NCBI GenBank assembly: GCA_023151185.1
Contig: JAKLJL010000002.1
Span: forward strand, 582,288-646,287
DNA: 64,000 nucleotides
From: Bacteroidota bacterium
Lineage (GTDB): Bacteria > Bacteroidota > JABWAT01
Direction: 5' to 3'
Shown here: one piece after another, positions 9,931-51,442 of the stretch
How the letters are laid out: every line of letters begins with the position of its first letter
Position numbering within the stretch: the stretch's first letter is position 1
Notes under the pieces: model-generated
Told to the model about the DNA's origin: nothing
Database searches by the model: none
Seen by the model: the letters and a program-made list of their open reading frames with translations, nothing else
Position numbers and translations under genes: made by a program

Positions 9931-10770
9931 ATGATTTTAAAGGCTTTCGCAAAAATAAATCTTGGATTGCGGATTCTGGAACGCCGTCCTGATGGTTTTC
10001 ATAATCTGGAAAGTATTTTTTGCTACATCAACTGGTATGATGACCTGATTTTCACACCATCCGGCCAGTTTCAGTTTACCTGTTCGGATCCATCCCTGCC
10101 AACTGATGAAGGAAATCTGGTTGTAAAGGCAGTCCGTCTGGTTGAAGAAACAACAGGAAAACCCTTTTCGTTTCAGATTCACCTTGAAAAACGGATTCCA
10201 CATGGGGCAGGGCTTGGCGGAGGGTCTTCGGATGCTGCCGCCGTTTTCAGATTTGCAATGGCCCGGTTTCCCGAAACCCTTTACTTCGAAAAAGCATCCG
10301 AACTTGCCGCCAGACTTGGGTCAGACCTGAATTTCTTTCTGTTACCGGTCACCCAGTATGCAACAGGAAGAGGAACAACTTTATCGCCGGTCGATTTTTT
10401 TATTCCGGGCTGGGTGTTAACAGTCTTTCCGGGAGTTCCGGTGCCCACCGGTTGGGCCTATCAGCAGATAAAACCCTACAATCTCCATCCGCTTCCACTT
10501 AATCAGGAACTTCCCTTGCTAAAGAACATCCGGGACTTTTCCGGTAAGCTGGTTAATGATTTTGATGCCCCGGTTTCATCTCAAAAACCAGAGATCCTGC
10601 AATTGAAAACTGAACTTGCCGAAACGCTGCCGGAGTACCTTTCCCTCTCAGGAAGTGGAAGTGCCTGTTTTGCCATCTACCAAACAAAAAGCCAGGCTGA
10701 GGAAGCGTTCAGGATATTTTCCGCAAAATACCCTTCAAACCTGACTCCGCCTGGCTTTAAACCTGATTAA
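9931..10770 (+). CDS. ispE: 4-diphosphocytidyl-2-C-methyl-D-erythritol kinase
   Basis: AKINLGLRIL N-terminal motif and the GHMP-kinase glycine loop PHGAGLGGGSSDAAA. Confidence 0.85.
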   Translation: MILKAFAKINLGLRILERRPDGFHNLESIFCYINWYDDLIFTPSGQFQFTCSDPSLPTDEGNLVVKAVRLVEETTGKPFSFQIHLEKRIPHGAGLGGGSSDAAAVFRFAMARFPETLYFEKASELAARLGSDLNFFLLPVTQYATGRGTTLSPVDFFIPGWVLTVFPGVPVPTGWAYQQIKPYNLHPLPLNQELPLLKNIRDFSGKLVNDFDAPVSSQKPEILQLKTELAETLPEYLSLSGSGSACFAIYQTKSQAEEAFRIFSAKYPSNLTPPGFKPD

Positions 10771-10776
10771 TGTAAG

Positions 10777-12387
10777 TTACTTTATTTTGTCAACCCAGGC
10801 ATCTTTGACAACTGCCTTGAATTCTTCCAGGGCCTTCAATGCATCGGGTCTGGTAGAAAACTGTCCCACCCGGATTCTGTAGAGGGTTTTTCCATTAACC
10901 TGAGCTTCTTTTAACCCCGAAGCATAGCCTTTCGACTGCCACGATTTTACTTGTTTTTCTGCCTGTTCTTTCGATGGAACAGAGGCAACATTAAAGGTAA
11001 ATCCGCCTTTTGCTTCATCATAAGTCCCTTTAAGACCGGCGGCGGAAACAGGTGCAGGAGCAGATGCTTTTGCCGGTTCCTGTTTTGGCCTGGGTTCAGT
11101 TGCAGCAGGTTTCAAAGCCGGGGTTTCTTTCACCTTCGGGTCAACAACCGGTTTCACAGGAGTTACGACTTTGGATGGCTGGGCTTCTGCAGGTTTTTTC
11201 GACTCGGATGGTGCAGCGACAGGACTTGAACCTACAGGGGTTTCGGTTGCAGCCGGGACCGGCAGGTTTACAGTGATACTATCTTTTTTTACCGAATCAG
11301 GAAGAACCGTTCCTGTTTTTTTCGCCGTATCAGCCTGAATTGCAGGTAAGGTGGTTGCCTGTTTAACTTTCTTCACTTCTGCAACATCATTTTTCATGAA
11401 CCAGTAAATAAACCCACCCAGAGCAATAACACCAACTGCAATCAGGAACCAGATCCAGCCACGGTCCATTTCCTTGCCAAGTTCGGTATGACTGAGGTAT
11501 TGATACTGGTAGGTATTTCCGTCAGAAGGCGGTGCAGAAGGTAAGGGCTCGCTGGATGCCGGTGAAATCGAGATATCCGGACCGGGTTCAGTCCATGTGA
11601 AAGGTTTCGGTTCCGGAGGAACAGGGGCGGCTGGTTCTGCAGCCGGCTCAGGAGCAGACTCTGCAACCAGGCCCGATATTTCTTCCTGGGTAAAGGCCGG
11701 AAGCTCATTCCCGGATTCTGGTGTGGGTTCCGGTAGTTTTTCCTCAGATTCAGGTGCAAATGCCGGAACGAAATCCTGCAAAAGAACCTGCTCGTCAGAC
11801 TGATCTGCCTGCGGCATTTCGGCAGCAACCGGCTCAGAGGTTTCTGGTTCACCTGAAACTGGCTCTGACAGGAATATCTGTTCCGGTTCTGATAGTGCAT
11901 CAGAAGGCTCGGTCATTTCTGCAAAGGAAATACCGGGTTCCTCAGTTACGATTTCTTCAGCAGCAACCAGATCAGAGTCTGTTTCTGAATCAGCAAGCGC
12001 AATAATTTCGGGACTTTCCGACACTGCGGATTCAATTTCCTCAGAAAATTCAGCAGCCTGTGGTTCAGAAAGTACTTGCGGACCGGCTGCAGGCGAAGAT
12101 TCGGCTTCAAGCACAACCGGTCCGTACCCGTTATATCTGAAATTAATCAGGCGTTCAAACTCCGGTTCGGGGATAAACGTCAGGCGGCCCGTATCGGAAA
12201 GCCCAAAAGAGCCTAAACCGGCAAAATCTGCCCGGTCACCGGCTTTGATTTTCTCGAGTTGTGAAGTAATCAGGGCATCCAGAATATGTGCGATATCGGT
12301 AGGATTTTTCCCTGAGCCGGTCTGGATTTTTTCGAATAGTTTTTCTGCATCCATGGGGGTACCTTTAGCTTTCAGGGATAAATTCAA
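10777..12387 (-). CDS. HU-like domain / acidic Pro-Glu-Ser-rich linker / TM helix / C-terminal SPOR domain protein
   Basis: N-terminus GDRADFAGLGSFGL matches the HU fold. The low-complexity acidic PE-rich region spans about 11500-12050. TM helix WIWFLIAVGVIALGGFIYWF. The C-terminal SPOR-like domain carries the YRIRVGQF motif. The start may instead be Met-12 at 12354. Confidence 0.6.
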   Translation of the reverse strand: MNLSLKAKGTPMDAEKLFEKIQTGSGKNPTDIAHILDALITSQLEKIKAGDRADFAGLGSFGLSDTGRLTFIPEPEFERLINFRYNGYGPVVLEAESSPAAGPQVLSEPQAAEFSEEIESAVSESPEIIALADSETDSDLVAAEEIVTEEPGISFAEMTEPSDALSEPEQIFLSEPVSGEPETSEPVAAEMPQADQSDEQVLLQDFVPAFAPESEEKLPEPTPESGNELPAFTQEEISGLVAESAPEPAAEPAAPVPPEPKPFTWTEPGPDISISPASSEPLPSAPPSDGNTYQYQYLSHTELGKEMDRGWIWFLIAVGVIALGGFIYWFMKNDVAEVKKVKQATTLPAIQADTAKKTGTVLPDSVKKDSITVNLPVPAATETPVGSSPVAAPSESKKPAEAQPSKVVTPVKPVVDPKVKETPALKPAATEPRPKQEPAKASAPAPVSAAGLKGTYDEAKGGFTFNVASVPSKEQAEKQVKSWQSKGYASGLKEAQVNGKTLYRIRVGQFSTRPDALKALEEFKAVVKDAWVDKIK

Positions 12388-12622
12388 GGCTGTCTTTGGG
12401 CGGGTAAAGAGAAACCCTGCCGGAAGAAGGATCCACTTCTTTCAGACTCGCCAGATGCTGAACCCTGAGTGTCCCCAAACCCGGAAGCTGGACGTCTTCG
12501 CCGGATAGAAGGGATTCCTTGATTGCAGTGTAAAATTGTCGGAGGACAAGGTCAACATCCGCCTCAGGAAGGTTGGTCTTGATTGCAATTTCCTGTACAA
12601 ATGTTTTTGAAAACATACTCAT
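12365..12622 (-). CDS. HU/IHF-family DNA-binding protein
   Basis: 85 aa. GEDVQLPGLGTLRVQH aligns with the HU consensus GDxVxLxGFGxFxVxxR. Confidence 0.7.
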   Translation of the reverse strand: MSMFSKTFVQEIAIKTNLPEADVDLVLRQFYTAIKESLLSGEDVQLPGLGTLRVQHLASLKEVDPSSGRVSLYPPKDSLEFIPES

Positions 12623-12627
12623 CCTGT

Positions 12628-14193
12628 TCAGAATTTAAAGGAAACACCAAAGGTTATTTGATTTGCTTCCCTGTTAAAACCGGGATAAACGAGATCCTTA
12701 TTATTTACGATAATCCTAATTTCACCGTAAAAATTCAATGTAGTAAAGTGAAAATCGTCAATTCTTAATAAAATATCACTGTAATCGGGCAGTTTCTTCT
12801 GTTTTTGGGGGTCTGTATACCTATTTGTGTGATAGCGGGCACGGGCAGAAATCCTGTTCTTTTGGTTTTCGGTCAGCCAGTCCAAATCCAGACCGGATGT
12901 AACGGCCGGTAAAAAAGGAACTGATTTGATTTTTCCAAAGAAAATTTCCTGACTGCCGTAAAGCCTGAGGACCAGTTCCGGGTTTAGATACCAGGAACAG
13001 GAAAGCGAAGCCTGGTGCGACGAAACCGTTACCCACTGTGTTGTCCCGGTTGTATCCGGATACAATCTGTCCTCTGATTCATGGTACAGAGTTCCCAATT
13101 TGACTATCCAGTGATCGGATGGAATCCATTCCAGAATATATTCAGCACGGTTGGTCTGATGGAGATTCAACGAGAAAGTTTTTCCGGGGTTAACCCAGAA
13201 AAATCCACCCGTGTAAAATTCTGGTGCCGGTAAAGACTGATAAAGCGTCCACTCCAGTTTATGGTGGAAATGACGGGTGTGCCCGAAGAGTTTTGCACTT
13301 CCCGAGGGCAGGTGGCGGATTGCCCCTGCATCATTGCGGTGAAAATAACCGCCCGCAACTTCAAGTGAGAACACCTCATTCCCTGCCTGAAAACCGGTTT
13401 CCGCCTTTCCTGCTCTGGAATCCGAACCTGACCGACCAGTTCCCTGCCAGCCTTCAACCCGGCTGATCCAGTATAAAAAAGATAAATCGAACCGGCTTTC
13501 AGCCAAAAGGCCTGCCGATCCACCCGAATTCTCTGACGGCCCCGAAGAAAAATAGTCGTGATAAAATCCATCAATCCGCCAGGAAGTTCCGTCCTCAAGC
13601 GGATCGCTTTTCACCTTTCCTTCAAGGCGGAGGGTTCTGTAAAGGGAGGTATCAATGGTGGACTGATGGGGTTGAATATCGGCATAGTCTAAACCGGCAG
13701 CCAGGGAATAGCTGGTTCCTGATGGGGTCATTCCGGTATTCAGCTGGCTGTTTCCCGTTATGAAGTCACCTCTGAACGTCTGGAGGCGGAAAGTCTTTTC
13801 TGTCTGGCGGTTGCCGAAAACTTCAAGCGTCCTGAACTGCCTGCTGCCAGGCGCCGTGTAAACAGCCCCCAGTTCACCATTATCAGAAAGGTGACTTCCC
13901 AGATAGAGAACCAGTTTGCTTTCCGGTTGAAAGTCGGGTTGACGGTAGGGCAGCAAATCGGACGGACCGTAAAGATCCAGCTCTGGGTTCAGCATGGAAA
14001 CCGGCTTGATTTCAGCCTTCCAGAAGGTAATTGGTACCGGCTTAAACGCCGGGCTGCCGGGTGGCTCCTTTCTGAAAACCTGAACAGAATCCGCTGTGCT
14101 CTGAGCCAGAACAGGTTCTGTCCCCAGCAGGAACCTAGCGGAAAAGAGCCCTGAGATCAGGAGAAACGGTATTTTTCGGGTACTTTTTGTCAT
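12628..14193 (-). CDS. Outer-membrane beta-barrel protein (unknown family)
   Basis: 521 aa. Signal peptide, alternating amphipathic beta-strand pattern, aromatic-rich, C-terminal ...GVSFKF (terminal Phe). Confidence 0.45.
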   Translation of the reverse strand: MTKSTRKIPFLLISGLFSARFLLGTEPVLAQSTADSVQVFRKEPPGSPAFKPVPITFWKAEIKPVSMLNPELDLYGPSDLLPYRQPDFQPESKLVLYLGSHLSDNGELGAVYTAPGSRQFRTLEVFGNRQTEKTFRLQTFRGDFITGNSQLNTGMTPSGTSYSLAAGLDYADIQPHQSTIDTSLYRTLRLEGKVKSDPLEDGTSWRIDGFYHDYFSSGPSENSGGSAGLLAESRFDLSFLYWISRVEGWQGTGRSGSDSRAGKAETGFQAGNEVFSLEVAGGYFHRNDAGAIRHLPSGSAKLFGHTRHFHHKLEWTLYQSLPAPEFYTGGFFWVNPGKTFSLNLHQTNRAEYILEWIPSDHWIVKLGTLYHESEDRLYPDTTGTTQWVTVSSHQASLSCSWYLNPELVLRLYGSQEIFFGKIKSVPFLPAVTSGLDLDWLTENQKNRISARARYHTNRYTDPQKQKKLPDYSDILLRIDDFHFTTLNFYGEIRIIVNNKDLVYPGFNREANQITFGVSFKF

Positions 14194-16891
14194 AGTCCTT
14201 AATCAGTTTCAGTGCGGCCTGTTTTTTCTTTTCCCTGACCAGTGATTGAACAGATAAAATCAGGATCTGATCCTCAATTTCACGGTCTTGCTGCCATTCG
14301 GTTCGATAAATTTCCAATTCTTTCTGGAGGTCTCCCGAGGATAGTTCCATCGCACGGATCTCCATTTTTTGCATGATTATTTTTTTCCGGAGCCGTTCAC
14401 TGAACTGGTTTTTTATCCGGAAATAATAGTCATCAAAGGCATCCCAACCGGCAGATTTCTGTGTAAAAAAAAGATCCTCCAGCAAGAGGGCTTCAAGAGA
14501 AGGAGAGATACTTTCTTCCCGCAAAGCTTCTTTCCTGAAAAACAGGGACAGAAGAGAATCCTTCCTGAAAGAATGGAACCGGTATAATCCCAAGTATAAC
14601 TGGAACCGGTCGCCGGGTGCTACAGGCCTTGATCCGTCATTAATCAGAATCTGAATCCGGGAAGTATCCAGCATTTCATATTCAGCCGGTGAAATCAACG
14701 TTCTGAGGTCAGAAATCCGGTCTGAAGGAACCCGGCCATCGTCCTTCCATTTCTGAAAATCCCGGGCTTTTGAAGTCAAAAAAAGTGACCGGATTACAAC
14801 CGGTTCTATCCATTCTTTATCCGGTGACAGATCCAGGCGCATCAGATTCTCGCCGGTTTTCTCCGGGTCAGGGCTTGCAGAGAGTAATTCCCGGAACAAA
14901 TCGGTTTTGTCGGGATCAATCCCGTTTTTCGCCAAAATCTGCGATTGGGAAGCAGGGATTCCTGAAGCCGCCAGTATAAAACAGCCACCATCACCAAAAT
15001 TTCGGAGAAGGTCCAGCAATGCCGGATTTTTCAGAACCGAAAGCACAGAATCATGGCCCAGAAACCGGATTCCGGTCTGCACGGAATAATGAAATGCCTG
15101 GGGCTCAGAGATCCTGAGCAGATTGCCGGCCAGCAGGTGTGTGGTCAGTTCCTTCCGCTTTCCGGAAAGTGTAGTTTCCACCGGGATAAGCCAGTTTTCG
15201 GCTTTGAACCCAAATTTTGACCGGTAATCCCGGATCCGGTTGTTCAGGTAAGCATAAGAACCTGTTGCGAATTCGGCCAGAATCTGCATCAACTCTACCG
15301 ACTCAGGAAAGAAGTCGGGGCTTAACCGGTTGAGAACCCGCAGGTATCCCAAAGCCAGATCCGGCCGGCCGGCATCCAGGGTCATTTTTGCCGCAGAAAA
15401 CATCATTCTGTTTTTTACTGAGTCGGATGCAGCGTACCGGATTTTTTTATCCAGAAGCGCAAGTCCGGTGCGTTGTTTCCCTGTCCTGAACAGGTTTTCT
15501 GATTGAATCAGATCGATATCATCATAATACCGGACGAAACGGTCACGGTAAAGCCGGATCCGTCTTTCGATGGAATCAGTCCAACCCAGGCGAATACAGG
15601 ATTCAAGCCCGGCCATAAAGGCGGGACCCTCGAGCCGGTGTCCCTTATAATCTGTCAGGAAATAGTCGAATTGCTGAATGGCCTCAGGATACTTTCCGGC
15701 TTTGAAAAGTGCAAAACCAGAATTATAAACCAACCCTGGCCAGGAGGCCTGCTGCCTTTTTTTATTGAATCCGGAAGCCGTCAGATAGGCCCTTCCGGCT
15801 TCCTTCCACCGGTTATTTTCAACGGCCACCTGCGCCACCTGAACCCAGAGTGAATCCAGGCTGAGCCCGGTGTCGGTTTCATCCGTTATCAGACTTAAAT
15901 CCCGTTCAAACAGATCCCAGCGATTCAATTTTAAGGCAGCCCAGAGACGGTGATTCAGGTTATACCGGTTGATTTCGGGTGAAAAGGTAAAAATCTGGAG
16001 ACGGGCCTCCAGAATCTGATCAATTTGCCCGGACTCTTTCCAGAGTTCAACAAAAAGGACTTTTTTAAAGGGTGCCAACCACGAATTGTCGCCGATTCGA
16101 TCAAGAATCTGCATGGCCCTGTTTTTTTGGTTTTCTTTCAGCAGGGCGTAAGCCAGCCTGAACCTGACAAAATCAATCTGGAAAGATCCCGGAAAAAGCT
16201 GGTCATACCGTCCCAGACTGATAATTGCATCCTTCCATAACCCGAGCCGGATGTAGGATTCAGAAACAATCAGAAGGCTCCGTTCCTTTTCATCCTGCCC
16301 AGTAATCAGTGGCTGAAGCAACAGGAGCTGATCAATGGCCCGGGCATACTGGCCAAGATGGTAATCGCAATCAGCAACGGACAGAGAAGCATAATTTCCG
16401 GACGGGGATTCCGGGTAGTGCTCAGAAAATCCCGAAAAAATCTGCCGGGCAGTTTCCCAGTTTCCCAGACGGGCGTGAATAAATCCTCTCAGTAAATAGG
16501 CGTGTTCAGACAGGTCTCCGCCCGGACCTGAACCAGCCGAATCGAGAAGGGAAAGTCCTTCGGTGAACTGATCGTAATCAATATAGGTCCGGGCAAGCCA
16601 GTAACTGATGGTAAAATTCCAGTCGCCGGTCGTTTTCCGGCGCAGTTCTGCCAGAAGTGGCCGTGAGTCCTGCAATCTACCCTGCTGAAGGTAAATTTGG
16701 GAAAGTTCCCACAACCAGACTGTACGTCTGGGGTGAACAGGATAGTGGTTCAGGTCAGCCCGCAATTGATGTTCGCTTTCAGCCCACAAACCGGAAGTAA
16801 AAAGGGGAGAATCAGGCGGGGGTAAAAACTGGGCCTTTCCGGTTCCGGCAAGAACGGTCATCAGAAAGACAAAAACCAGGACATTTTTCAT
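14135..16891 (-). CDS. Large TPR-repeat protein with signal peptide
   Basis: 918 aa. Signal peptide MKNVLVFVFLMTVLAGTGKAQ (no lipobox Cys) and many TPR-like repeats. Confidence 0.5.
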   Translation of the reverse strand: MKNVLVFVFLMTVLAGTGKAQFLPPPDSPLFTSGLWAESEHQLRADLNHYPVHPRRTVWLWELSQIYLQQGRLQDSRPLLAELRRKTTGDWNFTISYWLARTYIDYDQFTEGLSLLDSAGSGPGGDLSEHAYLLRGFIHARLGNWETARQIFSGFSEHYPESPSGNYASLSVADCDYHLGQYARAIDQLLLLQPLITGQDEKERSLLIVSESYIRLGLWKDAIISLGRYDQLFPGSFQIDFVRFRLAYALLKENQKNRAMQILDRIGDNSWLAPFKKVLFVELWKESGQIDQILEARLQIFTFSPEINRYNLNHRLWAALKLNRWDLFERDLSLITDETDTGLSLDSLWVQVAQVAVENNRWKEAGRAYLTASGFNKKRQQASWPGLVYNSGFALFKAGKYPEAIQQFDYFLTDYKGHRLEGPAFMAGLESCIRLGWTDSIERRIRLYRDRFVRYYDDIDLIQSENLFRTGKQRTGLALLDKKIRYAASDSVKNRMMFSAAKMTLDAGRPDLALGYLRVLNRLSPDFFPESVELMQILAEFATGSYAYLNNRIRDYRSKFGFKAENWLIPVETTLSGKRKELTTHLLAGNLLRISEPQAFHYSVQTGIRFLGHDSVLSVLKNPALLDLLRNFGDGGCFILAASGIPASQSQILAKNGIDPDKTDLFRELLSASPDPEKTGENLMRLDLSPDKEWIEPVVIRSLFLTSKARDFQKWKDDGRVPSDRISDLRTLISPAEYEMLDTSRIQILINDGSRPVAPGDRFQLYLGLYRFHSFRKDSLLSLFFRKEALREESISPSLEALLLEDLFFTQKSAGWDAFDDYYFRIKNQFSERLRKKIIMQKMEIRAMELSSGDLQKELEIYRTEWQQDREIEDQILILSVQSLVREKKKQAALKLIKDYDKKYPKNTVSPDLRALFR

Positions 16892-18378
16892 GGGCGGATA
16901 AACACATTGTAGGCAATTATCCCCAGGAAAACGGAAAGAGCAATACTGAAAAAGTTCACCGAGTCGTTATTAAACACCGTGTATCCCTTTACAATTCTGC
17001 CGGGTTCATTGCAGTGAGAGCCTTCCTCTGATTCCCTGCCGCAAATCCGGCAGGCGAATCTGACCTGGAAAGCAGATCCGAGAACGCTGTCAATCAGTGT
17101 TCCGGAAAAACCGGTTAAAGATATTAAAATCCAAAATTGCGCGGTTTTTTCAAAATAATAATCGGTCTGAAAATAAATCAGGGAGGAAATTAACGCGGCG
17201 CCGGCAAGACCGCCAAGGAGACCGGGAATTGAAATCCCGCCAGACCTCCCCTTTTCGATGGGATTAAAGGACAGGATATCAACCGGATTTCTCCGGCCAA
17301 ACAACTGCCCGATTTCAGTGCTCCAGGTATCTGCTGTGGCGGCGGCTACCGCAATAAGGAAAATTGCATAACTCCACGGCCACAGATTATTCATTGCAAC
17401 CAGAAACACCAGCAGCGCAGGTCCACCGTTGGCCCAGACCTGAGTTTGATTTCTTGGAGAACTTAATCCAGTCAATTCTCCCTTTTTCCTTCTGAAATAA
17501 TGGCTGATCAGAGTCAGAACGGAAGACAGAACAAAAAAGACCAGCATAGGAACCGTCCAGGCCCAACCACCCATTCCAAAAAGAATAAGTCCCATGAAAA
17601 ATACAGCCAGACTGCCGGAAAGTGACAAAAATCTGAACTTCCAGCTTATCCAGACAAAAGGAATCAACCCGGCTGCCACCATCCAGAAACGGGTAATATC
17701 AGAAGGGTCGATCAGAATATAATCAAGGAAAAGCGCACTGATAAGGGGAATTCCAAGATTATCGGTTCCGTTTGTCATCAGCAGTTCTGCAAGCGCCACC
17801 ATCAGACCGGTCAACCCTGCAATCTGAAAAAGTTCAAAGTAGGTAACCGGCGGAAGCTGTCCTGAAAACCCGGCAAACAGAATGATAAAGTACCCGGTGA
17901 TCATCATAACCAGAAAACCGTTGACCGATTTTCCTCTAGGCAAATCCTGAAACCGGGAGCCTTTTCCTCCCGGCTTTCCTAAAAAGGAGGCAAATGCATC
18001 GCCAAATCCCAGAATCAGCATGGATGCCTGCATTATGACCGGATCGCGTTCCCAATAGAAAAAACTAAGGACTGCAAAGGCGAGAGGAAAATAAATCACC
18101 CCTCTGGAAGCCTTATTGACAGAAAGAAACGGAAGCCAGGCAGGCCGGACGGAGGCAAGAAAATGAAGAAAAAAAAAGAGTCCGGCAAGCAGGATGACCG
18201 GAAATTTGTCCTGATAAAAATAAGGGGAAACAGCACAGGCCATTCCCCCAAGGATATGCAGATATTTCCGGCTGGTTTCCGGGAAAATCCAGTTTTTGGA
18301 TGCAGTAAAACTGAAAATGGCCTGAAGGAACAGAAAAAAGAGAAAGGTTACACCAAACCAAAACCAGTCAGATTGCAT
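16888..18378 (-). CDS. Fusion protein: CTP-dependent polyprenol/phytol kinase-like (VTE5/dolichol kinase family) N-terminal half + DUF92 (TMEM19/VTE6-like) C-terminal half
   Basis: N-terminal half GFGDAFASFLGKPGG...KSVNGF matches the GDxxAxxxG...KSxEG pattern of the dolichol/phytol kinase family. C-terminal half ATADTWSTEIG matches the DUF92 signature. Polytopic membrane protein. 4-nt overlap with the upstream TPR gene. Confidence 0.5.
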   Translation of the reverse strand: MQSDWFWFGVTFLFFLFLQAIFSFTASKNWIFPETSRKYLHILGGMACAVSPYFYQDKFPVILLAGLFFFLHFLASVRPAWLPFLSVNKASRGVIYFPLAFAVLSFFYWERDPVIMQASMLILGFGDAFASFLGKPGGKGSRFQDLPRGKSVNGFLVMMITGYFIILFAGFSGQLPPVTYFELFQIAGLTGLMVALAELLMTNGTDNLGIPLISALFLDYILIDPSDITRFWMVAAGLIPFVWISWKFRFLSLSGSLAVFFMGLILFGMGGWAWTVPMLVFFVLSSVLTLISHYFRRKKGELTGLSSPRNQTQVWANGGPALLVFLVAMNNLWPWSYAIFLIAVAAATADTWSTEIGQLFGRRNPVDILSFNPIEKGRSGGISIPGLLGGLAGAALISSLIYFQTDYYFEKTAQFWILISLTGFSGTLIDSVLGSAFQVRFACRICGRESEEGSHCNEPGRIVKGYTVFNNDSVNFFSIALSVFLGIIAYNVFIRP

Positions 18379-18382
18379 TCAG

Positions 18383-19324
18383 TCAGATTTTTAAGGTGAA
18401 TTGAAGGGCAGGAACGGAATATCCGGTTCCTGTCGGCAGACTGTTCAAAGATAACTTAACCTGATCGGTATGTAAACGGGCCTGCATGGCAGCATTGACA
18501 GCCGACACAGTATGGTTTACCAGGGTCAGGACGGCAAAAGTACTGGCGAGATTATGCATTTCATTGGCCCTGGTCCGGCTGTCACGGTAAGACCGGAAGG
18601 CCGGTGTCAGAAACTGCATATGACTCATTGGAAGACTGTTGTCATAATCATACCAACCCGGCATGAACTGTTCATACTTCCCGATCAGTTCATAATACTG
18701 CTGGGAATCATAACCGGGCAGGACATGTGAGAATTTAGCTCCGCCACCAAATGTAAATGTCATCTCCCTCTCGAGTGAATTCAATTCAGTCCACCATTCC
18801 CTGTTCCCGGGTGTCATATTGGGGTCTCCGTTGATTTTGTTTTTCAGTGCTACAGCAAGATCTTTTGCTTTCTGATCCTGGCCACCTCCAGAATCCTCGG
18901 CCCAATATATAAGGTAATCGGCATATTTACGGACACTCCACCCTTTAGCAGGGTCGTTGGCAACCTTCTGGTATGCTTTTTCTTTATTTGCGGCATCTTT
19001 GTCGAAATACAGGTAACTGCCAACCAAAACAATCTCTGCAGTAAAAAAGCCGATTGCCGACTTATAGGCTTCTGCATACCACTCACCGGTACCGGGAATG
19101 ACCGCAGAAAAAAAAGCCGCCTTCAGCGGACTTTTCTTTTCATCACTGAAAAAAGCCCAGGCTGAGGGTTGGGAATCCGAAATCCCCAGTTGGCTGTCCA
19201 GAAGCAGATTTCCGTACAGGGGTTGCAGATTCTCACCAGTCCGAGGCTCTGAAAGCGGCTGACCGGATGAGGCAGAAAAGTAAAAAATAAAAACAGAAAA
19301 GGAGAGTAATTTTAAAAAGTCCAT
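18383..19324 (-). CDS. Secreted hypothetical protein
   Basis: 313 aa with a signal peptide and no recognisable motif. Confidence 0.35.
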   Translation of the reverse strand: MDFLKLLSFSVFIFYFSASSGQPLSEPRTGENLQPLYGNLLLDSQLGISDSQPSAWAFFSDEKKSPLKAAFFSAVIPGTGEWYAEAYKSAIGFFTAEIVLVGSYLYFDKDAANKEKAYQKVANDPAKGWSVRKYADYLIYWAEDSGGGQDQKAKDLAVALKNKINGDPNMTPGNREWWTELNSLEREMTFTFGGGAKFSHVLPGYDSQQYYELIGKYEQFMPGWYDYDNSLPMSHMQFLTPAFRSYRDSRTRANEMHNLASTFAVLTLVNHTVSAVNAAMQARLHTDQVKLSLNSLPTGTGYSVPALQFTLKI

Positions 19325-22300
19325 TTTTCGAGTCCAAGATCAAAGTTAAACAACATTCCGAAATGGTATTGCCATTCCTGCCCGTACCGGACGGAATTTT
19401 TCCCGTCCGGTGTTTCAAAACCCTTGGTCAGGGCTACATCAAACCGGTCGAAACCGTAGGTTCCGGAAAAGAATATCCGGATAGGCATCAGATAAAATGA
19501 AGTGGATTCCAGGCGAAGTTCAAAACCTGCATCCCGCCTGAAAGAGGAAAGTGCAGGCATTTTGGCATTCCAGGCTTGCCCGATGTCAGCAAAGACTGAT
19601 CCGTAAAGCCGGTCGAAATAAAACATCTTGAAACTTTTATCCAGTTTTCTGAATATCGGGAACCGGTAGCTGATTTGACCGTGTGCCATTTCAAATCCGC
19701 CGATTGAATAAAACGGATATCCCCGCATCCCGGAAAAACCACCAGCATAATTATAATAGAACGGTTCACCCTTCCCACCTGTAACCCCGGCCCGACGGAT
19801 CCAGAATGATAGCGTGTGGTTGAAAAAGGGTAGTCCGATATGTTCCTTGTACCCGATGGAATATTTAAAAATAGAAAACTTCTTATAATGGAAAGTGAGT
19901 GCTCCATTTTCTACTAAAACCGAATCTAAAAGTTCATTGGCCTCGGCACCGATAGACAGGCTTCCCTCACGGCCTACCGGATTGATACTGGATTCCTTGG
20001 CTGGCTGTAAGTGCTCGAATGAATAATTCAGCAGTGCGCCATGTCCGGTAAAGTAGGTATCTGTAGAGGAGGAAACTTTTGAAATCTCATCGTTCACCTT
20101 AAAGAAAAAGGTGGCAATTTTATTTGAATAAGAGGAGTAAATATACTTCAGTGACAAAAGACCTGCGGGATCGGTTTTTATCTGGGCTCCTGCTTCAACC
20201 TGATTCAGATTATAAATGACATTTGCCCGTGCCGAATCCTCTCCAACTCCGAAATTCACTGCATCTTCTGACTGACGGGAAATATTGAAATAATCAATTG
20301 TCCAGCGAACCGGAAGCAGGCTGCTGAAAATCCCGTCTGCCAGATTCAGGCCCAGAAAAACATCCCGGTCCCACTCAGTAAACTTCCCGTCACCGAATGG
20401 GTTGATCAGGGCACCGGCACTGAACTGAATCCAATCCAGCGGATCAGATGAAAAAGCATAAGTCCCGATTTTTAAATCCCGTGACAAATTGTGCCCCAGC
20501 TTATCCCAGTTTTTTTGGCGGATATTATCCAGATAGCTCCCATCTGATTTGATATAGCCATCAAGCCGAAGTACCGGGTAAAACGATATCGGGTTCTGTG
20601 TTCTCATCCGGTAGGCAAAAACAGGACCGTCAACCGGCTGTATATTGGCATGATTCAGCGGAATTTCCTCAATTCCCTCTGATTCGGGATGGTTAACAAA
20701 CGGATAGGTAACCCTGGGTTTTAAAATTTTGGCGGCCGCAGTAAATACTCTCGCCTTAAATCCGGCTCCGGTAAAAACTGACCCGGCAACCTGCGATCCG
20801 GAAAGGGGCACTCCCTGAAAAACACTTCCTCTTACCTGAGTAATCTGAGTTCTTTTCCCGGTTGTCAAGTCCAGGGTGTAAAGATTGAAAATTCCGGTTT
20901 CATCAGAAGTTATCAGTAATTTTTCAGGAGTAATCCACCGGGGTTCCCGGTTATCACGGCCGGTCCTGAGTAGTTTTTTCCAGGCTTTTGTTCCTGCAGA
21001 ATAAAGTTGAATTTCTCTTCCATGGATCTCGGTAAAATCTACAGCAAGCTGCCCGGATTCCCGTTGAAAATCAAGGGTATGAAATTCAGTTTCTTCATTT
21101 TCGGGCGTGAGGTCAGAGGTTACTGATAGCATTTCCCCGGGTTCCCAGCCTGAAAGTGAAAGACAAACCACCGATTTCAGTGCATTTCTATTGCTGATGG
21201 CATAAATCAGGGAATCCCCATCCCAAACCGGAGAAAAAAGGCGGGCATCCCGGGTTAACCGGATGGCCTCTTCCTTCTGAAAATCCCAGATCCATAAATC
21301 AGAATACCGGGATCCAAGATGATTCGGTGTGCCAGTTTGGCTGTACAGCAGGTAGTTCTTTCCATTCCGGTTGAAAAAACGGATTCTGGCATTGGCATGG
21401 ATTTCTTCAACACGGCCCGTTTCAGTACCGGTCGTATCCATCAGCAAAACCACCGTTTGACCGAAATAATCGGCTTTCTGGTTGGACCGGATAATCAACC
21501 TGCCGGTCGCAGGATCAAAATCATCCACCCAGTTAGAAAATCCGGTTTCGGATAGGATTCGGCCTTCATCAATTTCGGGCTGGATTGGGGCAATCTGAGT
21601 GGCATAATGCGATCTGAGTACAGAAACCCACTCAGAATAGATGACGTCTCCAGGTTTACCGAAGGCATCCTCGAGGGCATCCCCGATCGAAAAAACAGTT
21701 TTCTTTTTCAGGGACAGGTTCAGCCGGTCAACTGCATCAAGTCCATAAGTTTTGCTTAAGTAGGAAACCAGATTGAATCCCTGGTTATAAACCGTCTCAC
21801 CATCAAGGGAGGTTTTGTTGAAACTGACCATTTCGGACCAGGTCAGTAAGGTAGAATCCAGAGTTCTCGCCCGCAGAATCATATCCCGGTGAGCATCCCA
21901 ATAGTCATAGTGAAGCCCGGGAACGTTAAACTGGGCAGTTCCTTCTGCCAGCCAGGCCGGAACCACAATGTTCAGGAACGGAAAAGAAACCAGCCGGTTC
22001 GGATATCCGTAGAGATAATCCGGCCGCCTGACATCTTCATATCCAAAATACTGAAAATAAAAAGCGGGGATCCGTTTCGACCATTTCATCGCCGACTGAA
22101 TCTGAACGATATGGGTAAATTCATGCGAAATGACATCCTCGAGCCATTTATGGTTGCCTCTGAGCGGGAAGTCGAGGGCCGTGGCATAGATTTCAATTTT
22201 ATCATCAAAAAAATAGGCAGCCCCGTTCGAGTAATCGTCGGTATCCTTCAGAATCAGGGTTTGTCTGGCCGGAAAATAATTATAAACCTTGCAGACCGGC

Positions 22301-22503
22301 AGATATACCGAATCGTATACGGCTGCCATTCTTCTCGCCATTTTTTCCATGGGCTCATGATACAAAACAGTTGCATATTTTGATTCCAAAGATTTCCAGG
22401 AGAGGTTTTTATACCCCATCGGGAAAAAAGGCTGGGCAAAAGAAGATCCTGCTGCCATTCCGCATAGAAGAATGACAGCAAAAAGAAAACGGGATCGGAT
22501 CAT
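19312..22503 (-). CDS. Multidomain outer-membrane protein: peptidase-MA-like (HExxH) domain + PD40/TolB-like propeller region + Omp85-type C-terminal beta-barrel
   Basis: 1063 aa. Signal peptide. HEFTH at aa 127-131, followed by WLAEGTAQF (an EGxA third-ligand-like motif). Mid-region repeats resemble PD40. The C-terminus MRGYPFYSIGG...SYRFPIF...FADIGQAW...FELRL...IRIFFSGTYGF...KWTF matches the BamA/Omp85 barrel signature, with a terminal Phe. Confidence 0.5.
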   Translation of the reverse strand: MIRSRFLFAVILLCGMAAGSSFAQPFFPMGYKNLSWKSLESKYATVLYHEPMEKMARRMAAVYDSVYLPVCKVYNYFPARQTLILKDTDDYSNGAAYFFDDKIEIYATALDFPLRGNHKWLEDVISHEFTHIVQIQSAMKWSKRIPAFYFQYFGYEDVRRPDYLYGYPNRLVSFPFLNIVVPAWLAEGTAQFNVPGLHYDYWDAHRDMILRARTLDSTLLTWSEMVSFNKTSLDGETVYNQGFNLVSYLSKTYGLDAVDRLNLSLKKKTVFSIGDALEDAFGKPGDVIYSEWVSVLRSHYATQIAPIQPEIDEGRILSETGFSNWVDDFDPATGRLIIRSNQKADYFGQTVVLLMDTTGTETGRVEEIHANARIRFFNRNGKNYLLYSQTGTPNHLGSRYSDLWIWDFQKEEAIRLTRDARLFSPVWDGDSLIYAISNRNALKSVVCLSLSGWEPGEMLSVTSDLTPENEETEFHTLDFQRESGQLAVDFTEIHGREIQLYSAGTKAWKKLLRTGRDNREPRWITPEKLLITSDETGIFNLYTLDLTTGKRTQITQVRGSVFQGVPLSGSQVAGSVFTGAGFKARVFTAAAKILKPRVTYPFVNHPESEGIEEIPLNHANIQPVDGPVFAYRMRTQNPISFYPVLRLDGYIKSDGSYLDNIRQKNWDKLGHNLSRDLKIGTYAFSSDPLDWIQFSAGALINPFGDGKFTEWDRDVFLGLNLADGIFSSLLPVRWTIDYFNISRQSEDAVNFGVGEDSARANVIYNLNQVEAGAQIKTDPAGLLSLKYIYSSYSNKIATFFFKVNDEISKVSSSTDTYFTGHGALLNYSFEHLQPAKESSINPVGREGSLSIGAEANELLDSVLVENGALTFHYKKFSIFKYSIGYKEHIGLPFFNHTLSFWIRRAGVTGGKGEPFYYNYAGGFSGMRGYPFYSIGGFEMAHGQISYRFPIFRKLDKSFKMFYFDRLYGSVFADIGQAWNAKMPALSSFRRDAGFELRLESTSFYLMPIRIFFSGTYGFDRFDVALTKGFETPDGKNSVRYGQEWQYHFGMLFNFDLGLEKWTF

Positions 22504-22508
22504 GGGTG

Positions 22509-25500: not shown

Positions 25501-25532
25501 AGATAAAAAAAGCTCGGTCTGGCTTTATACAT
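22509..25532 (-). CDS. T9SS CTD cargo protein with M6 (InhA-like) metallopeptidase-like N-terminal domain
   Basis: 1007 aa. Signal peptide. The VIAFQVEFQDE N-terminal strand is typical of M6-domain proteins. The position homologous to HExxHxxGxPDxY reads TANFGNFLGLPDLY (aa 251-264). The C-terminal CTD is YSWPNPSKDGLVHFRILV...ILKVVLIR. Confidence 0.55.
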   Translation of the reverse strand: MYKARPSFFYLFLFCSSLVSAQLPVRLNPTPVSGEYSVIAFQVEFQDELVDGKDSDPFTEGTGRFVTTAPDTGFLDSYPREKTYFSKHLEFLKSYWERVSGGKISLSQLHVASEILVLPGKMRTYSAYKQTAAEGYSRLVSDFLAAAAAKPELADEIRPFYSGEKKTHFILFHAGMGKDINWGSILGGDPTPADISSIYLSPSSAIPFSPAEIYPGITLSNLSILPETLSRVVESYGKKVLISFGINGIMTANFGNFLGLPDLYNTSTGASVTGRFGLMDGYGIFNFNGFFPSPPNAWEQYQLGWITPEVKDISALPELKTINPGQPFFIHLGDKKYFLLETLHRNPNLEENGTTISYFDRGEAKTLPVSKDINGFYEYDQSLLKGIITDISNPWWVIPAGINEKEDTIRGGMLIWKINDGNLYSGMTPGEFSKLNSKEETRVLTLLEADGSQDIGQVYGSFTGGSGSEAGTIFDYWTDGNISPLYKGEFSAESVPSSNWEKQAQTGIQVKGFIRAGTGIQISFNYSAPANPVLISRKLLSLPEKVTGKIRSFYHQDSIWTVAVHAETVSLYQGSAAAGTWPISAKEWVSGFSNPASSGDTLFIAIPQFPAGIRVIQLLNGQISDALYTIPVLPGRNSDDWRLSGSLVFSSGSFYLPVQSKTDNNWFIARLKDGQLIPHSQLSDPSGFTDRIFFQQNGQWFSILGNKLTLSLGSAEGVLPHSEPYRSVTASSEDNQVVIQTQNGQFKTFLVGYSAPGSLELVNEKTGSTNRNLILNGPEDRYQFFISSDSLSVSGYYGNLQLEGFPVEMSQKITGIQMLESAGNLVLVLKSGQTWYTTPVHGYPNKTPLSAGINPSGLVSANGRVVSAQLLADSLSVDLVLLNGFFQGTDQNPGEALRVAGKSSVSRKSWVSQTPENEETVYSWPNPSKDGLVHFRILVPFTGTGKITLLDLGGQKVTDLSVSVQKNTETEITWNSGSAQSGMYFASVDLSGEGKSLTKILKVVLIR

Positions 25533-25545
25533 AATTTAAACCGGT

Positions 25546-26697: not shown

Positions 26698-26730
26698 TTA
26701 AAAATCTCTCCGGTAAGGTTTGAGAATTGT

Positions 26731-30543: not shown

Positions 30544-30683
30544 AAAAATTAGGGCTGAATGATGAACTTTAGGTTCAAAATAATCAAAAAATATTACTTC
30601 TTTAGCATTCGGCCGATATGCAGTTTCCCTGTTTTGAATTGGTTCTAAGAAAGTTACGATTCCGGCGAAAGAAAAACAACCTG

Positions 30684-31028
30684 TCAGCCCGGAGGCCACA
30701 AAAATTTGCGCTTTCCAAGGAAATGGGCATGAAGATGAAAAACGGTTTGCCCGGCATCTTCATTGGCATTAAGAACAACCCGGTAGCCGGAATCAGAAAT
30801 TCCGAGTTCTTTGGCAATCCTGGCACCGGTCGCCAGGAGAGACCCGACCAGTTCCGGGTCAGATTCTGCAGCATCAGTTAAATTCCTGAAATGGATTTTA
30901 GGGATGACCAGAAAATGAACTGGCGCCTGAGGGTTAATGTCATTGAAGGCCAGTACAGAATCATCCTCATATACAGGATTTACCGGTATTTCTCCAGAAA
31001 CAAACTTACAAAAAAGACAGTCTGTCAT
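30684..31028 (-). CDS. HIT-family (histidine triad) nucleotide hydrolase/transferase
   Basis: 114 aa. HLHAH histidine-triad motif near the C-terminus, with typical Hint-like length and order. Confidence 0.8.
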   Translation of the reverse strand: MTDCLFCKFVSGEIPVNPVYEDDSVLAFNDINPQAPVHFLVIPKIHFRNLTDAAESDPELVGSLLATGARIAKELGISDSGYRVVLNANEDAGQTVFHLHAHFLGKRKFLWPPG

Positions 31029-51435: not shown

Positions 51436-51442
51436 GGGAAGA

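What the first reader, a model, noticed from the sequence alone, without database searches (positions are those of the whole stretch)
16888..18378. Natural fusion of a VTE5-like CTP-dependent polyprenol/phytol kinase with a DUF92 (VTE6/TMEM19-like) domain, embedded in the T9SS-linked chain
The N-terminal half has the GD(x)2A(x)3G...KSxxG pattern of the dolichol/phytol kinase family. The C-terminal half has the ADTWSTEIG signature of DUF92. In plants and cyanobacteria the unfused homologs (VTE5 phytol kinase, VTE6 phytyl-phosphate kinase) act in consecutive steps, so this is a Rosetta-stone fusion pointing to two sequential isoprenoid-alcohol phosphorylations. Its operon context (TPR protein, OM barrels, T9SS) hints at a polyprenyl-phosphate carrier role in envelope or glycan biogenesis rather than tocopherol or chlorophyll metabolism.
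Basis: partly seen in the sequence, partly recalled or inferred. Interest (0 to 1): 0.6.

Follow-up and report, generated by a model that had tools for sequence, protein, structure and literature searches.

The report
Fused prenol kinase–DUF92 membrane enzyme
This gene really does encode one membrane protein joining a phytol/dolichol-kinase-like half to a DUF92 (VTE6-like) half, most likely to phosphorylate an isoprenoid alcohol twice, but the same fusion was described in archaea in 2015 and its link to the type IX secretion genes holds only in close relatives.

Summary
Window 16888–18378 (minus strand) is one uninterrupted 496-aa ORF. Its C-half is DUF92/PF01940 (E 3.7e-57). Its N-half misses Pfam's threshold alone, but as a profile it finds proteins named SEC59/DGK1/VTE5, phytol kinase or dolichol kinase (E down to 1e-44), and it keeps every family motif.

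The two halves are distant paralogues of the CTP-dependent CdsA/CarS/dolichol-kinase superfamily. All conserved residues lie on the predicted cytoplasmic face.

The most likely function is a CTP-dependent two-step salvage, prenol to prenyl-phosphate to prenyl-diphosphate. This is inferred from plant VTE5/VTE6 and was not tested.

It is not new in kind. Makarova, Galperin and Koonin (2015) described the same SEC59-like + COG1836 fusion in archaea, and the homology of DUF92 to cytidylyltransferases.

What is unremarked:
- The fusion is widespread in FCB bacteria, with full-length matches in 80 species genomes and 107 of the 150 best N-half relatives.
- It is annotated everywhere only as "DUF92".

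The T9SS/TPR neighbourhood is conserved only in the window's own clade. In other phyla the neighbours are housekeeping genes. A diphosphate product also argues against a glycan-carrier role.

Interest is low to moderate.

The parts
16888..18378 (-). Whole gene: 496-aa, 16-helix integral membrane protein. NCBI MCK6601484.1, annotated only as 'DUF92 domain-containing protein'.
   Evidence: ORF with no stops. Exact protein found in the public collection. AlphaFold2 mean pLDDT 91.2, pTM 0.90, 16 helices.
17671..18378 (-). N-terminal half (aa 1-236): SEC59/DGK1/VTE5-type (COG0170) CTP-dependent prenol-kinase-like domain, helices H1 to H8/H9.
   Evidence: The N-half profile hits named VTE5-family, phytol kinase and dolichol kinase proteins at E 1e-44 to 1e-30. 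7 of 26 N-halves hit PF01148. The window's own N-half scores only 10.8 bits.
18256..18270 (-). R37-K38-Y-L-H41, an Arg-Lys-x-x-His 'charged clamp' at the cytoplasmic start of helix 2.
   Evidence: R37 and H41 are invariant. The same Arg-Lys-x-x-His pattern is described as the end of the CTP pocket in the PfPolK model (PMC10849223). Coordinates verified.
17977..18003 (-). G126-D127-A-F-A130-S-F-L-G134 (GDxxAxxxG), with putative catalytic/metal-binding Asp127.
   Evidence: D127 and A130 are invariant in 26 N-halves. D127 is lost in the sister clade P0002/P0004/P0006. Coordinates verified.
17917..17931 (-). K150-S-V-N-G154 (K[ST]xxG) in cytoplasmic loop 5.
   Evidence: K150 and G154 are invariant in all 37 homologues. 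Coordinates verified.
17758..17787 (-). E198...D206-N207 (ExxxxxGxDN), the second acidic cluster of the N-half.
   Evidence: Invariant in 26 N-halves. Changed to D...ET/EK in the sister clade. Coordinates verified.
16936..17658 (-). C-terminal half (aa 241-481): DUF92 / COG1836 / VTE6-TMEM19 family domain.
17308..17334 (-). A349-D350-T-W-S-T-E355-I-G357, the DUF92 signature. It aligns in register with GD127xxAxxxG of the N-half.
   Evidence: D350, W352, T354, E355 and G357 are invariant. hhalign register shown. Coordinates verified.
17221..17250 (-). G377-R-S-G380-G-I-S-I-P-G386, a glycine-rich cytoplasmic loop. It is the counterpart of K150SxxG154.
   Evidence: G377, G380, G381 and G386 are invariant. 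hhalign register shown.
17077..17094 (-). I-D430-S431-V-L-G434, the second acidic position of the DUF92 half. It aligns with E198 of the N-half.
   Evidence: D430, S431 and G434 are invariant. Alignment shown.
17011..17052 (-). C443-R-I-C446-G-R-E-S-E-E-G-S-H455-C456, a CxxC...HC zinc-ribbon-like insert in the last cytoplasmic loop. It forms short beta strands in the model.
   Evidence: Present in most fused and stand-alone bacterial DUF92 proteins; absent in P0051-53 and P0056. It lies on the K/R-rich face. Metal binding is inferred, not tested.
18383..19324 (-). Upstream gene: DUF5683-like, 313 aa. Its stop lies 4 nt before the target's ATG.
   Evidence: Pfam DUF5683 E 1.8e-5. Junction sequence. 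Syntenic in the close clade.
14135..16891 (-). Downstream gene: 918-aa TPR protein. Its ATG overlaps the target's stop (ATGA).
   Evidence: TPR families. Weak PorW/SprE similarity, 40.9 bits against a cutoff of 250. Junction. Syntenic in the close clade.

Best explanation
The gene encodes a bifunctional, 16-helix inner-membrane enzyme built from two distantly paralogous domains of the CTP-dependent CdsA/CarS/dolichol-kinase superfamily.

Proposed mechanism:
- The N-half (VTE5/SEC59/PolK-like) transfers a phosphate from CTP to a free isoprenoid alcohol (farnesol, geranylgeraniol, phytol or a longer prenol) to give the prenyl monophosphate.
- The C-half (DUF92/VTE6-like), packed against it in the same chain, adds the second phosphate to give the prenyl diphosphate.
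- The diphosphate re-enters prenyl-transfer or chain-elongation reactions, so this is a prenol salvage pathway.
- Both active sites face the cytoplasm, where CTP is available. The fusion acts as a covalent pseudo-dimer that can hand the membrane-bound intermediate from one site to the other.

Shown here: the domain identities, the intact motifs, the paralogy of the halves, the topology, and the wide distribution of the fusion.

Inferred: the kinase chemistry of each half (from plant VTE5/VTE6 and Plasmodium PolK), CTP as the donor, the substrate, and channelling between the sites.
For: - Single ORF.
- C-half is PF01940 at 194 bits.
- The N-half profile hits named VTE5/phytol/dolichol kinases at E 1e-44. 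PF01148 is hit by 7 of 26 N-halves.
- All N-half motifs are intact in the window protein: R37K38xxH41, GD127, K150SxxG154, E198, D206N207. The RKxxH pattern matches the CTP 'charged clamp' described for PfPolK (PMC10849223).
- All DUF92 invariant residues are intact.
- The halves align in register by hhalign: probability 85-90%, E 2e-6, score 48.8, against 27.2 or less for reversed profiles and 24.0 or less for 23 block-shuffled controls. This agrees with the published HHpred result of 97.6% for COG1836 against pfam01148 (PMC5898192).
- Topology: 25 K+R on odd loops against 4 on even loops, with every conserved motif of both halves on the K/R-rich side.
- Confident inter-domain packing, pTM 0.90.
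- The fusion is maintained as one ORF in 78 of 80 loci across five FCB phyla.
- VTE5 and VTE6 catalyse the two consecutive steps in plants (PMC5694494, PMC10849223).
Against: - No biochemical data exist for any bacterial member.
- The window's own N-half fails Pfam's threshold, and the C-half fails the TIGR00297 equivalog cutoff.
- The closest relatives (P0002/P0004/P0006) have lost the N-half catalytic residues but keep the domain. P0055 shows the reverse. So in some lineages one step suffices, or one half is only structural.
- A review notes that VTE6 might itself also phosphorylate phytol (PMC5694494).
- The superfamily contains cytidylyltransferases as well as kinases, and the best structural match of the DUF92 half is a cytidylyltransferase.
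- Gene context gives no pathway partner. There is no uppS or prenyltransferase nearby. IspE lies 6 kb away on the other strand and a polyprenyl synthetase 21 kb away.
Confidence: 0.6

Rival explanations
1. Envelope carrier-lipid recycling tied to the T9SS operon. The enzyme re-phosphorylates free undecaprenol or polyprenol to supply the polyprenyl-phosphate carrier for glycan or anionic-LPS synthesis used in anchoring T9SS cargo.
For: - The junctions are tight: a 4-nt gap upstream and an ATGA overlap downstream.
- The complete order PorU-PorV-T9SS cargo-MA-like peptidase-DUF5683-fusion-TPR-unknown-HU-SPOR is conserved at 41-55% protein identity.
- The TPR protein has faint PorW/SprE similarity.
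- The window also encodes polyprenyl-phosphate-dependent glycosylation genes: a Wzx/MurJ-like flippase at 3485-5011 and a TMEM260-like GT-C at 51443-54073.
Against: - None of these neighbours accompanies the fusion in 80 loci from other FCB lineages, other Bacteroidota included. Neighbours there are housekeeping genes.
- A second phosphorylation would produce the diphosphate, which must be dephosphorylated again before it can serve as carrier (inference).
- The sister clade with the same synteny has lost the catalytic residues of the very domain that would make the monophosphate carrier.
Confidence: 0.12
2. The DUF92 half is a cytidylyltransferase and not a kinase. It would convert the prenyl phosphate made by the N-half, or another lipid phosphate, plus CTP into a CDP-activated lipid, as CdsA and CarS do.
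For: - The best solved structural match of the DUF92 half is CDP-archaeol synthase, followed by CdsA.
- DUF92 is homologous to pfam01148, with the metal-binding aspartates conserved (PMC5898192).
- FCB bacteria widely carry archaeal-type GGGP/DGGGP synthases (bioRxiv 10.1101/448035).
Against: - The only characterised DUF92 member, plant VTE6, is reported as a phytyl-phosphate kinase (reviews).
- Kinases such as dolichol kinase and VTE5 share the same fold, so fold alone cannot discriminate between the two chemistries.
- No DUF92 member is known to have cytidylyltransferase activity.
Confidence: 0.1
3. Only one half is catalytically relevant. The other is a structural partner, a pseudo-enzyme completing a covalent pseudo-dimer, so the protein performs a single phosphorylation.
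For: - Reciprocal degeneration occurs in relatives. P0002/P0004/P0006 lost D127, E198 and D206N207 but keep an N-half 64-78% identical within the clade. P0055 has a degenerate C-half.
- The N-half evolves faster than the C-half in every pair compared.
- From my own knowledge, CdsA is a homodimer.
Against: In the window protein itself, and in 33 of 37 aligned homologues, every conserved residue of both halves is intact.
Confidence: 0.1

Closest known systems
Archaeal two-domain arCOG02245 proteins (e.g. Mbar_A3310 of Methanosarcina barkeri), described by Makarova, Galperin and Koonin 2015 (PMC5898192)
   Same: Identical architecture: an N-terminal SEC59/dolichol-kinase-like (COG0170) domain fused to a C-terminal COG1836/pfam01940 domain. 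Both domains belong to the cytidylyltransferase/kinase superfamily with conserved aspartates. The predicted role was a kinase step in isoprenoid metabolism.
   Different: - This protein is bacterial (FCB superphylum), not archaeal.
- The archaeal genes' one conserved neighbour, uppS, is absent from the window and from 86 related loci (using a probe sequence recalled from memory).
- Whether the bacterial and archaeal fusions share one origin was not tested. No archaeal relative surfaced in my searches.
VTE5 (phytol kinase) / FOLK / PfPolK / SEC59 dolichol kinase, the CTP-dependent prenol kinases (PF01148 clan, COG0170)
   Same: The N-half has the RKxxH clamp, GDxxAxxxG, K[ST]xxG and E...DN motifs and about 8 TM helices. 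The profile-level match to named family members reaches E 1e-44.
   Different: - It is very diverged. The window's N-half alone scores 10.8 bits against PF01148, below the cutoff of 24.
- It is fused to DUF92.
- The organism is non-photosynthetic, so phytol from its own chlorophyll is not the obvious substrate.
VTE6 (phytyl-phosphate kinase) / Synechocystis Sll0875 / human TMEM19, the DUF92 family (PF01940, COG1836)
   Same: The C-half matches PF01940 end to end at 194 bits and carries the ADTWxTEIG, GxSGGxSxxG and DSxLG motifs.
   Different: - It falls below the TIGR00297 equivalog cutoff.
- It carries a CxxC...HC insert, shared with many bacterial DUF92 proteins.
- It is covalently joined to its presumed upstream enzyme.
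CdsA (CDP-diacylglycerol synthase, PDB 4q2e) and CarS (CDP-archaeol synthase, PDB 5guf)
   Different: These enzymes transfer CMP to a lipid phosphate and are not kinases. Sequence identity is 11-17%. Neither has a two-domain fused architecture.

Membership tests
SEC59/DGK1/VTE5 prenol kinase family (COG0170; Pfam PF01148 clan) | Sequence match to the family model above its curated threshold | tested here: not met
   The window's N-half alone scores 10.8 bits against PF01148 (E 0.43, cutoff 24), aligned over profile positions 24-215 of 264. There is no NCBIfam hit.
SEC59/DGK1/VTE5 prenol kinase family (COG0170; Pfam PF01148 clan) | Profile-level homology to recognised family members | tested here: met
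   The profile of 26 N-halves hits stand-alone proteins named SEC59/DGK1/VTE5 family, phytol kinase or dolichol kinase at E 1e-44 to 1e-30. 7 of 26 N-halves hit PF01148 individually, best E 2.5e-7. The exhaustive search found 13,845 representatives at E<=1e-3.
SEC59/DGK1/VTE5 prenol kinase family (COG0170; Pfam PF01148 clan) | Conserved motifs: Arg-Lys-x-x-His clamp, GDxxAxxxG, K[ST]xxG and an acidic E...DN cluster, on about 8 TM helices | tested here: met
   R37K38xxH41, G126D127xxA130xxxG134, K150SxxG154, E198 and D206N207 are all present and invariant. The N-half has 8-9 helices in the model. The clamp is described in PMC10849223.
SEC59/DGK1/VTE5 prenol kinase family (COG0170; Pfam PF01148 clan) | CTP-dependent phosphorylation of an isoprenoid alcohol | not testable with these tools
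   Requires an enzyme assay.
DUF92 / VTE6 / TMEM19 (PF01940, COG1836) | Match to PF01940 above the gathering score, over the full domain | tested here: met
   194 bits against 27.5, covering aa 241-481 and profile positions 6-249 of 251.
DUF92 / VTE6 / TMEM19 (PF01940, COG1836) | Equivalog-level match to TIGR00297 | tested here: not met
   91.1 bits against a cutoff of 205.85. The protein is a diverged subfamily member.
DUF92 / VTE6 / TMEM19 (PF01940, COG1836) | Prenyl-phosphate kinase activity (VTE6: phytyl-P to phytyl-PP) | not testable with these tools
   Known only for plant VTE6, from the literature. No bacterial DUF92 has been assayed in the papers I could read.
Fused SEC59-like + COG1836 architecture (arCOG02245 two-domain proteins, Makarova et al. 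2015) | An N-terminal COG0170-like domain and a C-terminal pfam01940 domain in one polypeptide | tested here: met
   The description of the archaeal proteins is in PMC5898192.
Fused SEC59-like + COG1836 architecture (arCOG02245 two-domain proteins, Makarova et al. 2015) | The two domains are homologous to each other and to pfam01148, with conserved acidic residues in both | tested here: met
   hhalign N-half against C-half gives probability 85-90% and score 48.8, against controls of 27.2 or less. D127/D206 and D350/D430 are invariant. CarS and CdsA are structural matches.
Fused SEC59-like + COG1836 architecture (arCOG02245 two-domain proteins, Makarova et al. 2015) | Genomic association with uppS (cis-prenyltransferase) | tested here: not met
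   tblastn with E. coli UppS (sequence recalled from memory) finds nothing at E<=1e-3 in the 64-kb window or in 86 related loci. No Prenyltransf family appears among the annotated neighbours.
Type IX secretion system component or accessory | Consistent co-occurrence with T9SS genes across the protein family | tested here: not met
   The synteny with PorU/PorV is found only in the close clade. It is absent in 80 of 80 loci from other lineages.

The most novel reading that the evidence does not exclude
The FCB-wide fused enzyme would be the missing bacterial prenol salvage pathway, the first pairing of a prenol kinase with a prenyl-phosphate kinase outside photosynthetic organisms and apicomplexans.

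Its archaeal-type architecture and its FCB distribution parallel those of the GGGP/DGGGP synthases reported across the FCB superphylum. On this reading it recycles geranylgeraniol into GGPP for archaeal-type ether lipids or other GGPP-derived products, and it may have been acquired together with those genes.

In this Bacteroidota clade it has additionally been captured into a T9SS/outer-membrane operon.
Probability: 0.1. Interest if true: 0.55.

Novelty: new member of a known kind. Interest (0 to 1): 0.25.

Why it matters
A 2026 review states that all prenol kinases characterised so far come from photosynthetic organisms or a parasite related to algae, and that the animal enzymes remain unidentified (PMC13022625). 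Outside plants, the second kinase (the polyprenyl-phosphate kinase) has no characterised gene.

A single bacterial polypeptide carrying both putative activities could help in several ways:
- It is compact, models with high confidence, and would be a convenient system for expression and structural work.
- Both steps could be studied together, including whether DUF92 proteins such as human TMEM19 are generally prenyl-phosphate kinases.
- It could serve as a one-gene tool for feeding prenols into engineered terpenoid pathways.

There is also a practical annotation gap. Public annotation calls hundreds of these proteins just 'DUF92 domain-containing' and misses the kinase-like N-terminal half.

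The conceptual advance is small, because the fusion and its implication were already published for archaea.

Tried and rejected
- Plus-strand reading: rejected, full of stops.
- Sequence search of the full protein against PDB: nothing. A DUF92 profile against PDB sequences gave zero hits at E<=10, so no solved relative is detectable by sequence.
- Foldseek of the two-domain model against PDB: no hit below E 0.5. CdsA 4q2g reached only E 0.66.
- Sigma-70 promoter scan: no better than shuffles (16 sites against 17.4 expected), and not appropriate for Bacteroidota.
- Looking for the window's neighbours next to distant homologues: none found.
- Looking for any pathway-specific recurrent neighbour: only housekeeping genes, the most frequent in 18 of 80 loci.
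- The primary papers that predicted and proved VTE6 (PlantSEED, PMC4084441; vom Dorp 2015, PMC4682318) are not held. My recollection that prokaryotic clustering or fusion with phytol kinase underlay that prediction could not be verified and is not used as evidence.
- Source names for divergent two-domain homologues: none carried an organism name.
- Third homology search with the full-length profile, to reach archaeal fusions: none surfaced.
- A literature search including 'TMEM19' was swamped by TMEM19x names.
- Weak PDB sequence hits of the N-half profile to a designed protein (4hhu) and an 'LHCI-2' chain (9vfj) were judged to be chance.

Full report
**1. What is there**

Window 16888–18378 holds one open reading frame of 496 codons on the minus strand, ATG to TGA, with no internal stop. 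The plus-strand frame is riddled with stops.

The identical protein is already public as NCBI MCK6601484.1, "DUF92 domain-containing protein" from a Bacteroidota metagenome-assembled genome. It occurs on at least nine contigs. The gene's GC content equals that of the window, 0.465 against 0.466.

**2. The two halves**

The C-terminal half (aa 241–481) matches Pfam DUF92/PF01940 end to end, with E 3.7e-57 and 194 bits against a cutoff of 27.5.

The N-terminal half is more diverged:
- Alone it reaches only 10.8 bits on PF01148 (E 0.43, cutoff 24) and hits nothing in NCBIfam. Strictly, the curated membership test is not met.
- At profile level the assignment is secure. An alignment of 26 N-halves retrieves stand-alone ~220-aa proteins that their sources name "SEC59/DGK1/VTE5 family protein", "phytol kinase" and "dolichol kinase", with E 1e-44 to 1e-30.
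- Seven of the 26 N-halves hit PF01148 individually, best E 2.5e-7.
- Ten positions are invariant in these N-halves: R37, H41, G93, D127, A130, K150, G154, E198, D206 and N207. The window protein has all of them.
- The R37-K38-x-x-H41 pattern is the same as the Arg-Lys-x-x-His "charged clamp" described at the end of the CTP pocket in the model of the experimentally validated Plasmodium prenol kinase (PMC10849223).

**3. The halves are paralogues**

Profile–profile comparison of the N-halves with the C-halves aligns 140 columns in register. R92 pairs with R309, GD127 with AD350, KSxxG154 with SGGxSxxG386, and E198 with D430.

| Comparison | Score |
|---|---|
| Real N-half against C-half (probability 85–90%, E about 2e-6) | 48.8 |
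| Reversed profiles | 27.2 or less |
| 23 block-shuffled controls | 24.0 or less |

A plain N-half HMM scores three of 45 real DUF92 sequences above all 270 reversed or shuffled controls.

Structure supports the same conclusion:
- AlphaFold2 gives a confident two-domain model with pLDDT 91.2, pTM 0.90 and 16 helices.
- The margin over noise is modest, but it agrees with the sequence evidence.

**4. Topology**

Using the model's 16 helices, K+R residues number 25 on the odd-numbered loops and 4 on the even ones. Every conserved motif of both halves lies on the K/R-rich side, presumably cytoplasmic, where CTP is available. So does the Cys-rich loop C443-x2-C446…H455-C456.

That CxxC…HC insert is also present in many stand-alone bacterial DUF92 proteins, so it is not a property of the fusion.

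**5. Distribution**

- A scan of one genome per species found 582 relatives. The 80 best all match nearly full-length (query residues about 2–485). They come from Marinimicrobia/Fidelibacterota, Ignavibacteriota, KSB1, Calditrichota and Bacteroidota.
- In 78 of the 80 loci the match is a single ORF with a median length of 500 aa.
- In an exhaustive profile search with the N-half, 107 of the best 150 cluster representatives (50% identity clusters) are 430–535 aa long.
- Every public name I saw for these proteins is "DUF92 domain-containing" or "TIGR00297 family".

**6. Context**

In the window the gene is packed into a minus-strand chain. The upstream DUF5683-like gene stops 4 nt before the target's ATG, and the target's stop overlaps the start of the downstream 918-aa TPR gene.

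Three relatives at 41–55% identity share the whole gene order:
- PorU
- PorV
- T9SS M6-like cargo protein
- MA-like peptidase
- DUF5683
- the fusion
- TPR protein
- unknown protein of about 520 aa
- HU
- SPOR
- IspE, on the opposite strand

None of these neighbours has a homologue within 8 kb of the fusion gene in any of the 80 more distant loci. There the recurrent neighbours are holA, enolase, cyclophilin, FtsK and DivIC, the most frequent in 18 of 80 loci. The T9SS link is therefore clade-level synteny and not a property of the family.

No cis-prenyltransferase (uppS) lies in the window or in any of the 86 loci (the probe sequence was recalled from memory). The nearest isoprenoid genes are ispE, 6 kb away on the other strand, and a polyprenyl synthetase 21 kb away.

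**7. Function**

The best-supported reading is a bifunctional CTP-dependent kinase: prenol to prenyl phosphate in the N-half, then prenyl phosphate to prenyl diphosphate in the C-half. This rests on analogy with VTE5 and VTE6, which act consecutively in plants, and with PfPolK. The chemistry, the phosphate donor and the substrate are inferred and were not tested.

- The end product would be a diphosphate, and the carrier form is the monophosphate.
- The sister clade with the same T9SS synteny (P0002/P0004/P0006) has lost D127, E198 and D206-N207 of the N-half, which is the domain that would make the monophosphate.

That N-half is nevertheless still 64–78% identical within the clade, against 80–88% for the C-half. 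One relative, P0055, shows the reverse pattern with a degenerate DUF92 half. This reciprocal decay with retention of the domain suggests that the two paralogous halves form an obligate structural unit, a covalent pseudo-dimer. It also leaves open that in some lineages only one step is catalysed.

**8. Comparison with what is known**

Makarova, Galperin and Koonin (2015, PMC5898192) already reported three things:
- COG1836/pfam01940 is homologous to pfam01148 (HHpred 97.6%), with the metal-binding aspartates conserved.
- Several archaeal members, such as Mbar_A3310, carry an additional N-terminal Sec59/dolichol-kinase-like domain (99.85%).
- The family probably performs a kinase step in isoprenoid biosynthesis.

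VTE5 and VTE6 were established in plants in 2006 and 2015, as cited. The fusion, the paralogy and the implied two-step logic are therefore all known.

What I did not find described:
- the breadth of the fusion in FCB bacteria
- the pseudo-enzyme variants
- the capture of the gene into a T9SS-linked operon in one Bacteroidota clade

As of 2026, reviews still say that all characterised prenol kinases come from photosynthetic organisms or an alga-related parasite.

**9. Verdict**

- Novelty: a new (bacterial) member of a known kind.
- Interest: 0.25.

The most novel reading not excluded is that this is the FCB prenol-salvage enzyme feeding GGPP to the archaeal-type lipid enzymes reported across the same superphylum. 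I put that at about 10%.

Noticed in passing
P0002, P0004, P0006 (closest relatives; e.g. L083:9001-10482): The sister clade at 54-55% identity has lost the N-half catalytic residues: D127 to S/A/G, E198 to D, D206N207 to ET/EK, and the RKxxH clamp is partly lost. All DUF92 residues are kept, and the N-half stays 64-78% identical within the clade, so it looks like a retained pseudo-kinase domain. P0055 shows the opposite pattern, with a degenerate DUF92 half.
   Followed up: partly
window 17011-17052 (-), aa 443-456: A Cys-rich CxxC...HC loop (CRICGRESEEGSHC) forms short beta strands on the predicted cytoplasmic side of the DUF92 half and is probably a small zinc ribbon. It is also present in stand-alone bacterial DUF92 proteins but absent in some divergent members (P0051-53, P0056).
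   Followed up: partly
window 10777-30699 (-); L081, L083, L085: A ten-gene order is conserved among relatives whose fusion proteins are only 41-55% identical: PorU (26731-30699), PorV, a T9SS-dependent M6-like 'inactivated' metalloprotease (22509-25532; NF052323 at 415 bits, below its cutoff of 600), a 1063-aa MA-like peptidase, DUF5683, the fusion, a 918-aa TPR protein, an unknown 521-aa protein, HU and SPOR. The 521-aa (12628-14193) and 313-aa proteins have no significant family assignment.
   Followed up: partly
window 14135-16891 (-): The 918-aa TPR protein has a faint match to the T9SS lipoprotein PorW/SprE model (40.9 bits against a cutoff of 250), alongside BamD/YbgF-like TPR hits. It may be a diverged PorW-like component.
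   Followed up: no
window 9931-10770 (+): This is IspE, the MEP-pathway CDP-ME kinase (TIGR00154 at 167 bits, above its cutoff of 138.7). It lies at the end of the chain on the opposite strand, and its position is conserved in the three syntenic relatives.
   Followed up: partly
L057:1322-2353 and 12 other loci: A UPF0104/LPG_synthase_TM (COG0392) membrane protein gene recurs about 3 kb upstream on the same strand in 13 of 80 fusion loci. Makarova et al. predicted this family to be glycan-lipid flippases. It may be no more than lineage synteny, since holA and cyclophilin lie in between.
   Followed up: no
window 50422-54073 (-) and 3485-5011 (-): Polyprenyl-phosphate-dependent glycosylation genes lie elsewhere in the window: a TMEM260-like GT-C O-mannosyltransferase (876 aa) next to a GT2, and a Wzx/MurJ-type flippase. 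They are more than 12 kb from the target, and I found no evidence of linkage.
   Followed up: no
window 44425-45456 (-): An HPr kinase/phosphorylase gene (Hpr_kinase_C, E 4e-65). From my own knowledge this is unusual for classical Bacteroidia, which suggests the MAG belongs to a deep or atypical Bacteroidota lineage.
   Followed up: no
window 10777-12622 (-): The mechanical ORF 10777-12387 (536 aa, TTG start) has an HU-like N-terminus plus a C-terminal SPOR domain. Relatives have a separate 83-89-aa HU gene followed by a 480-550-aa SPOR protein. The 85-aa ORF at 12365-12622 is probably that separate HU gene.
   Followed up: no
window 39591-40565 (+): A trans-polyprenyl diphosphate synthase (PF00348, E 5.6e-65) follows tatC, 21 kb from the fusion gene. 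It would be the natural consumer of salvaged short-chain prenyl diphosphates, but it is not linked.
   Followed up: no
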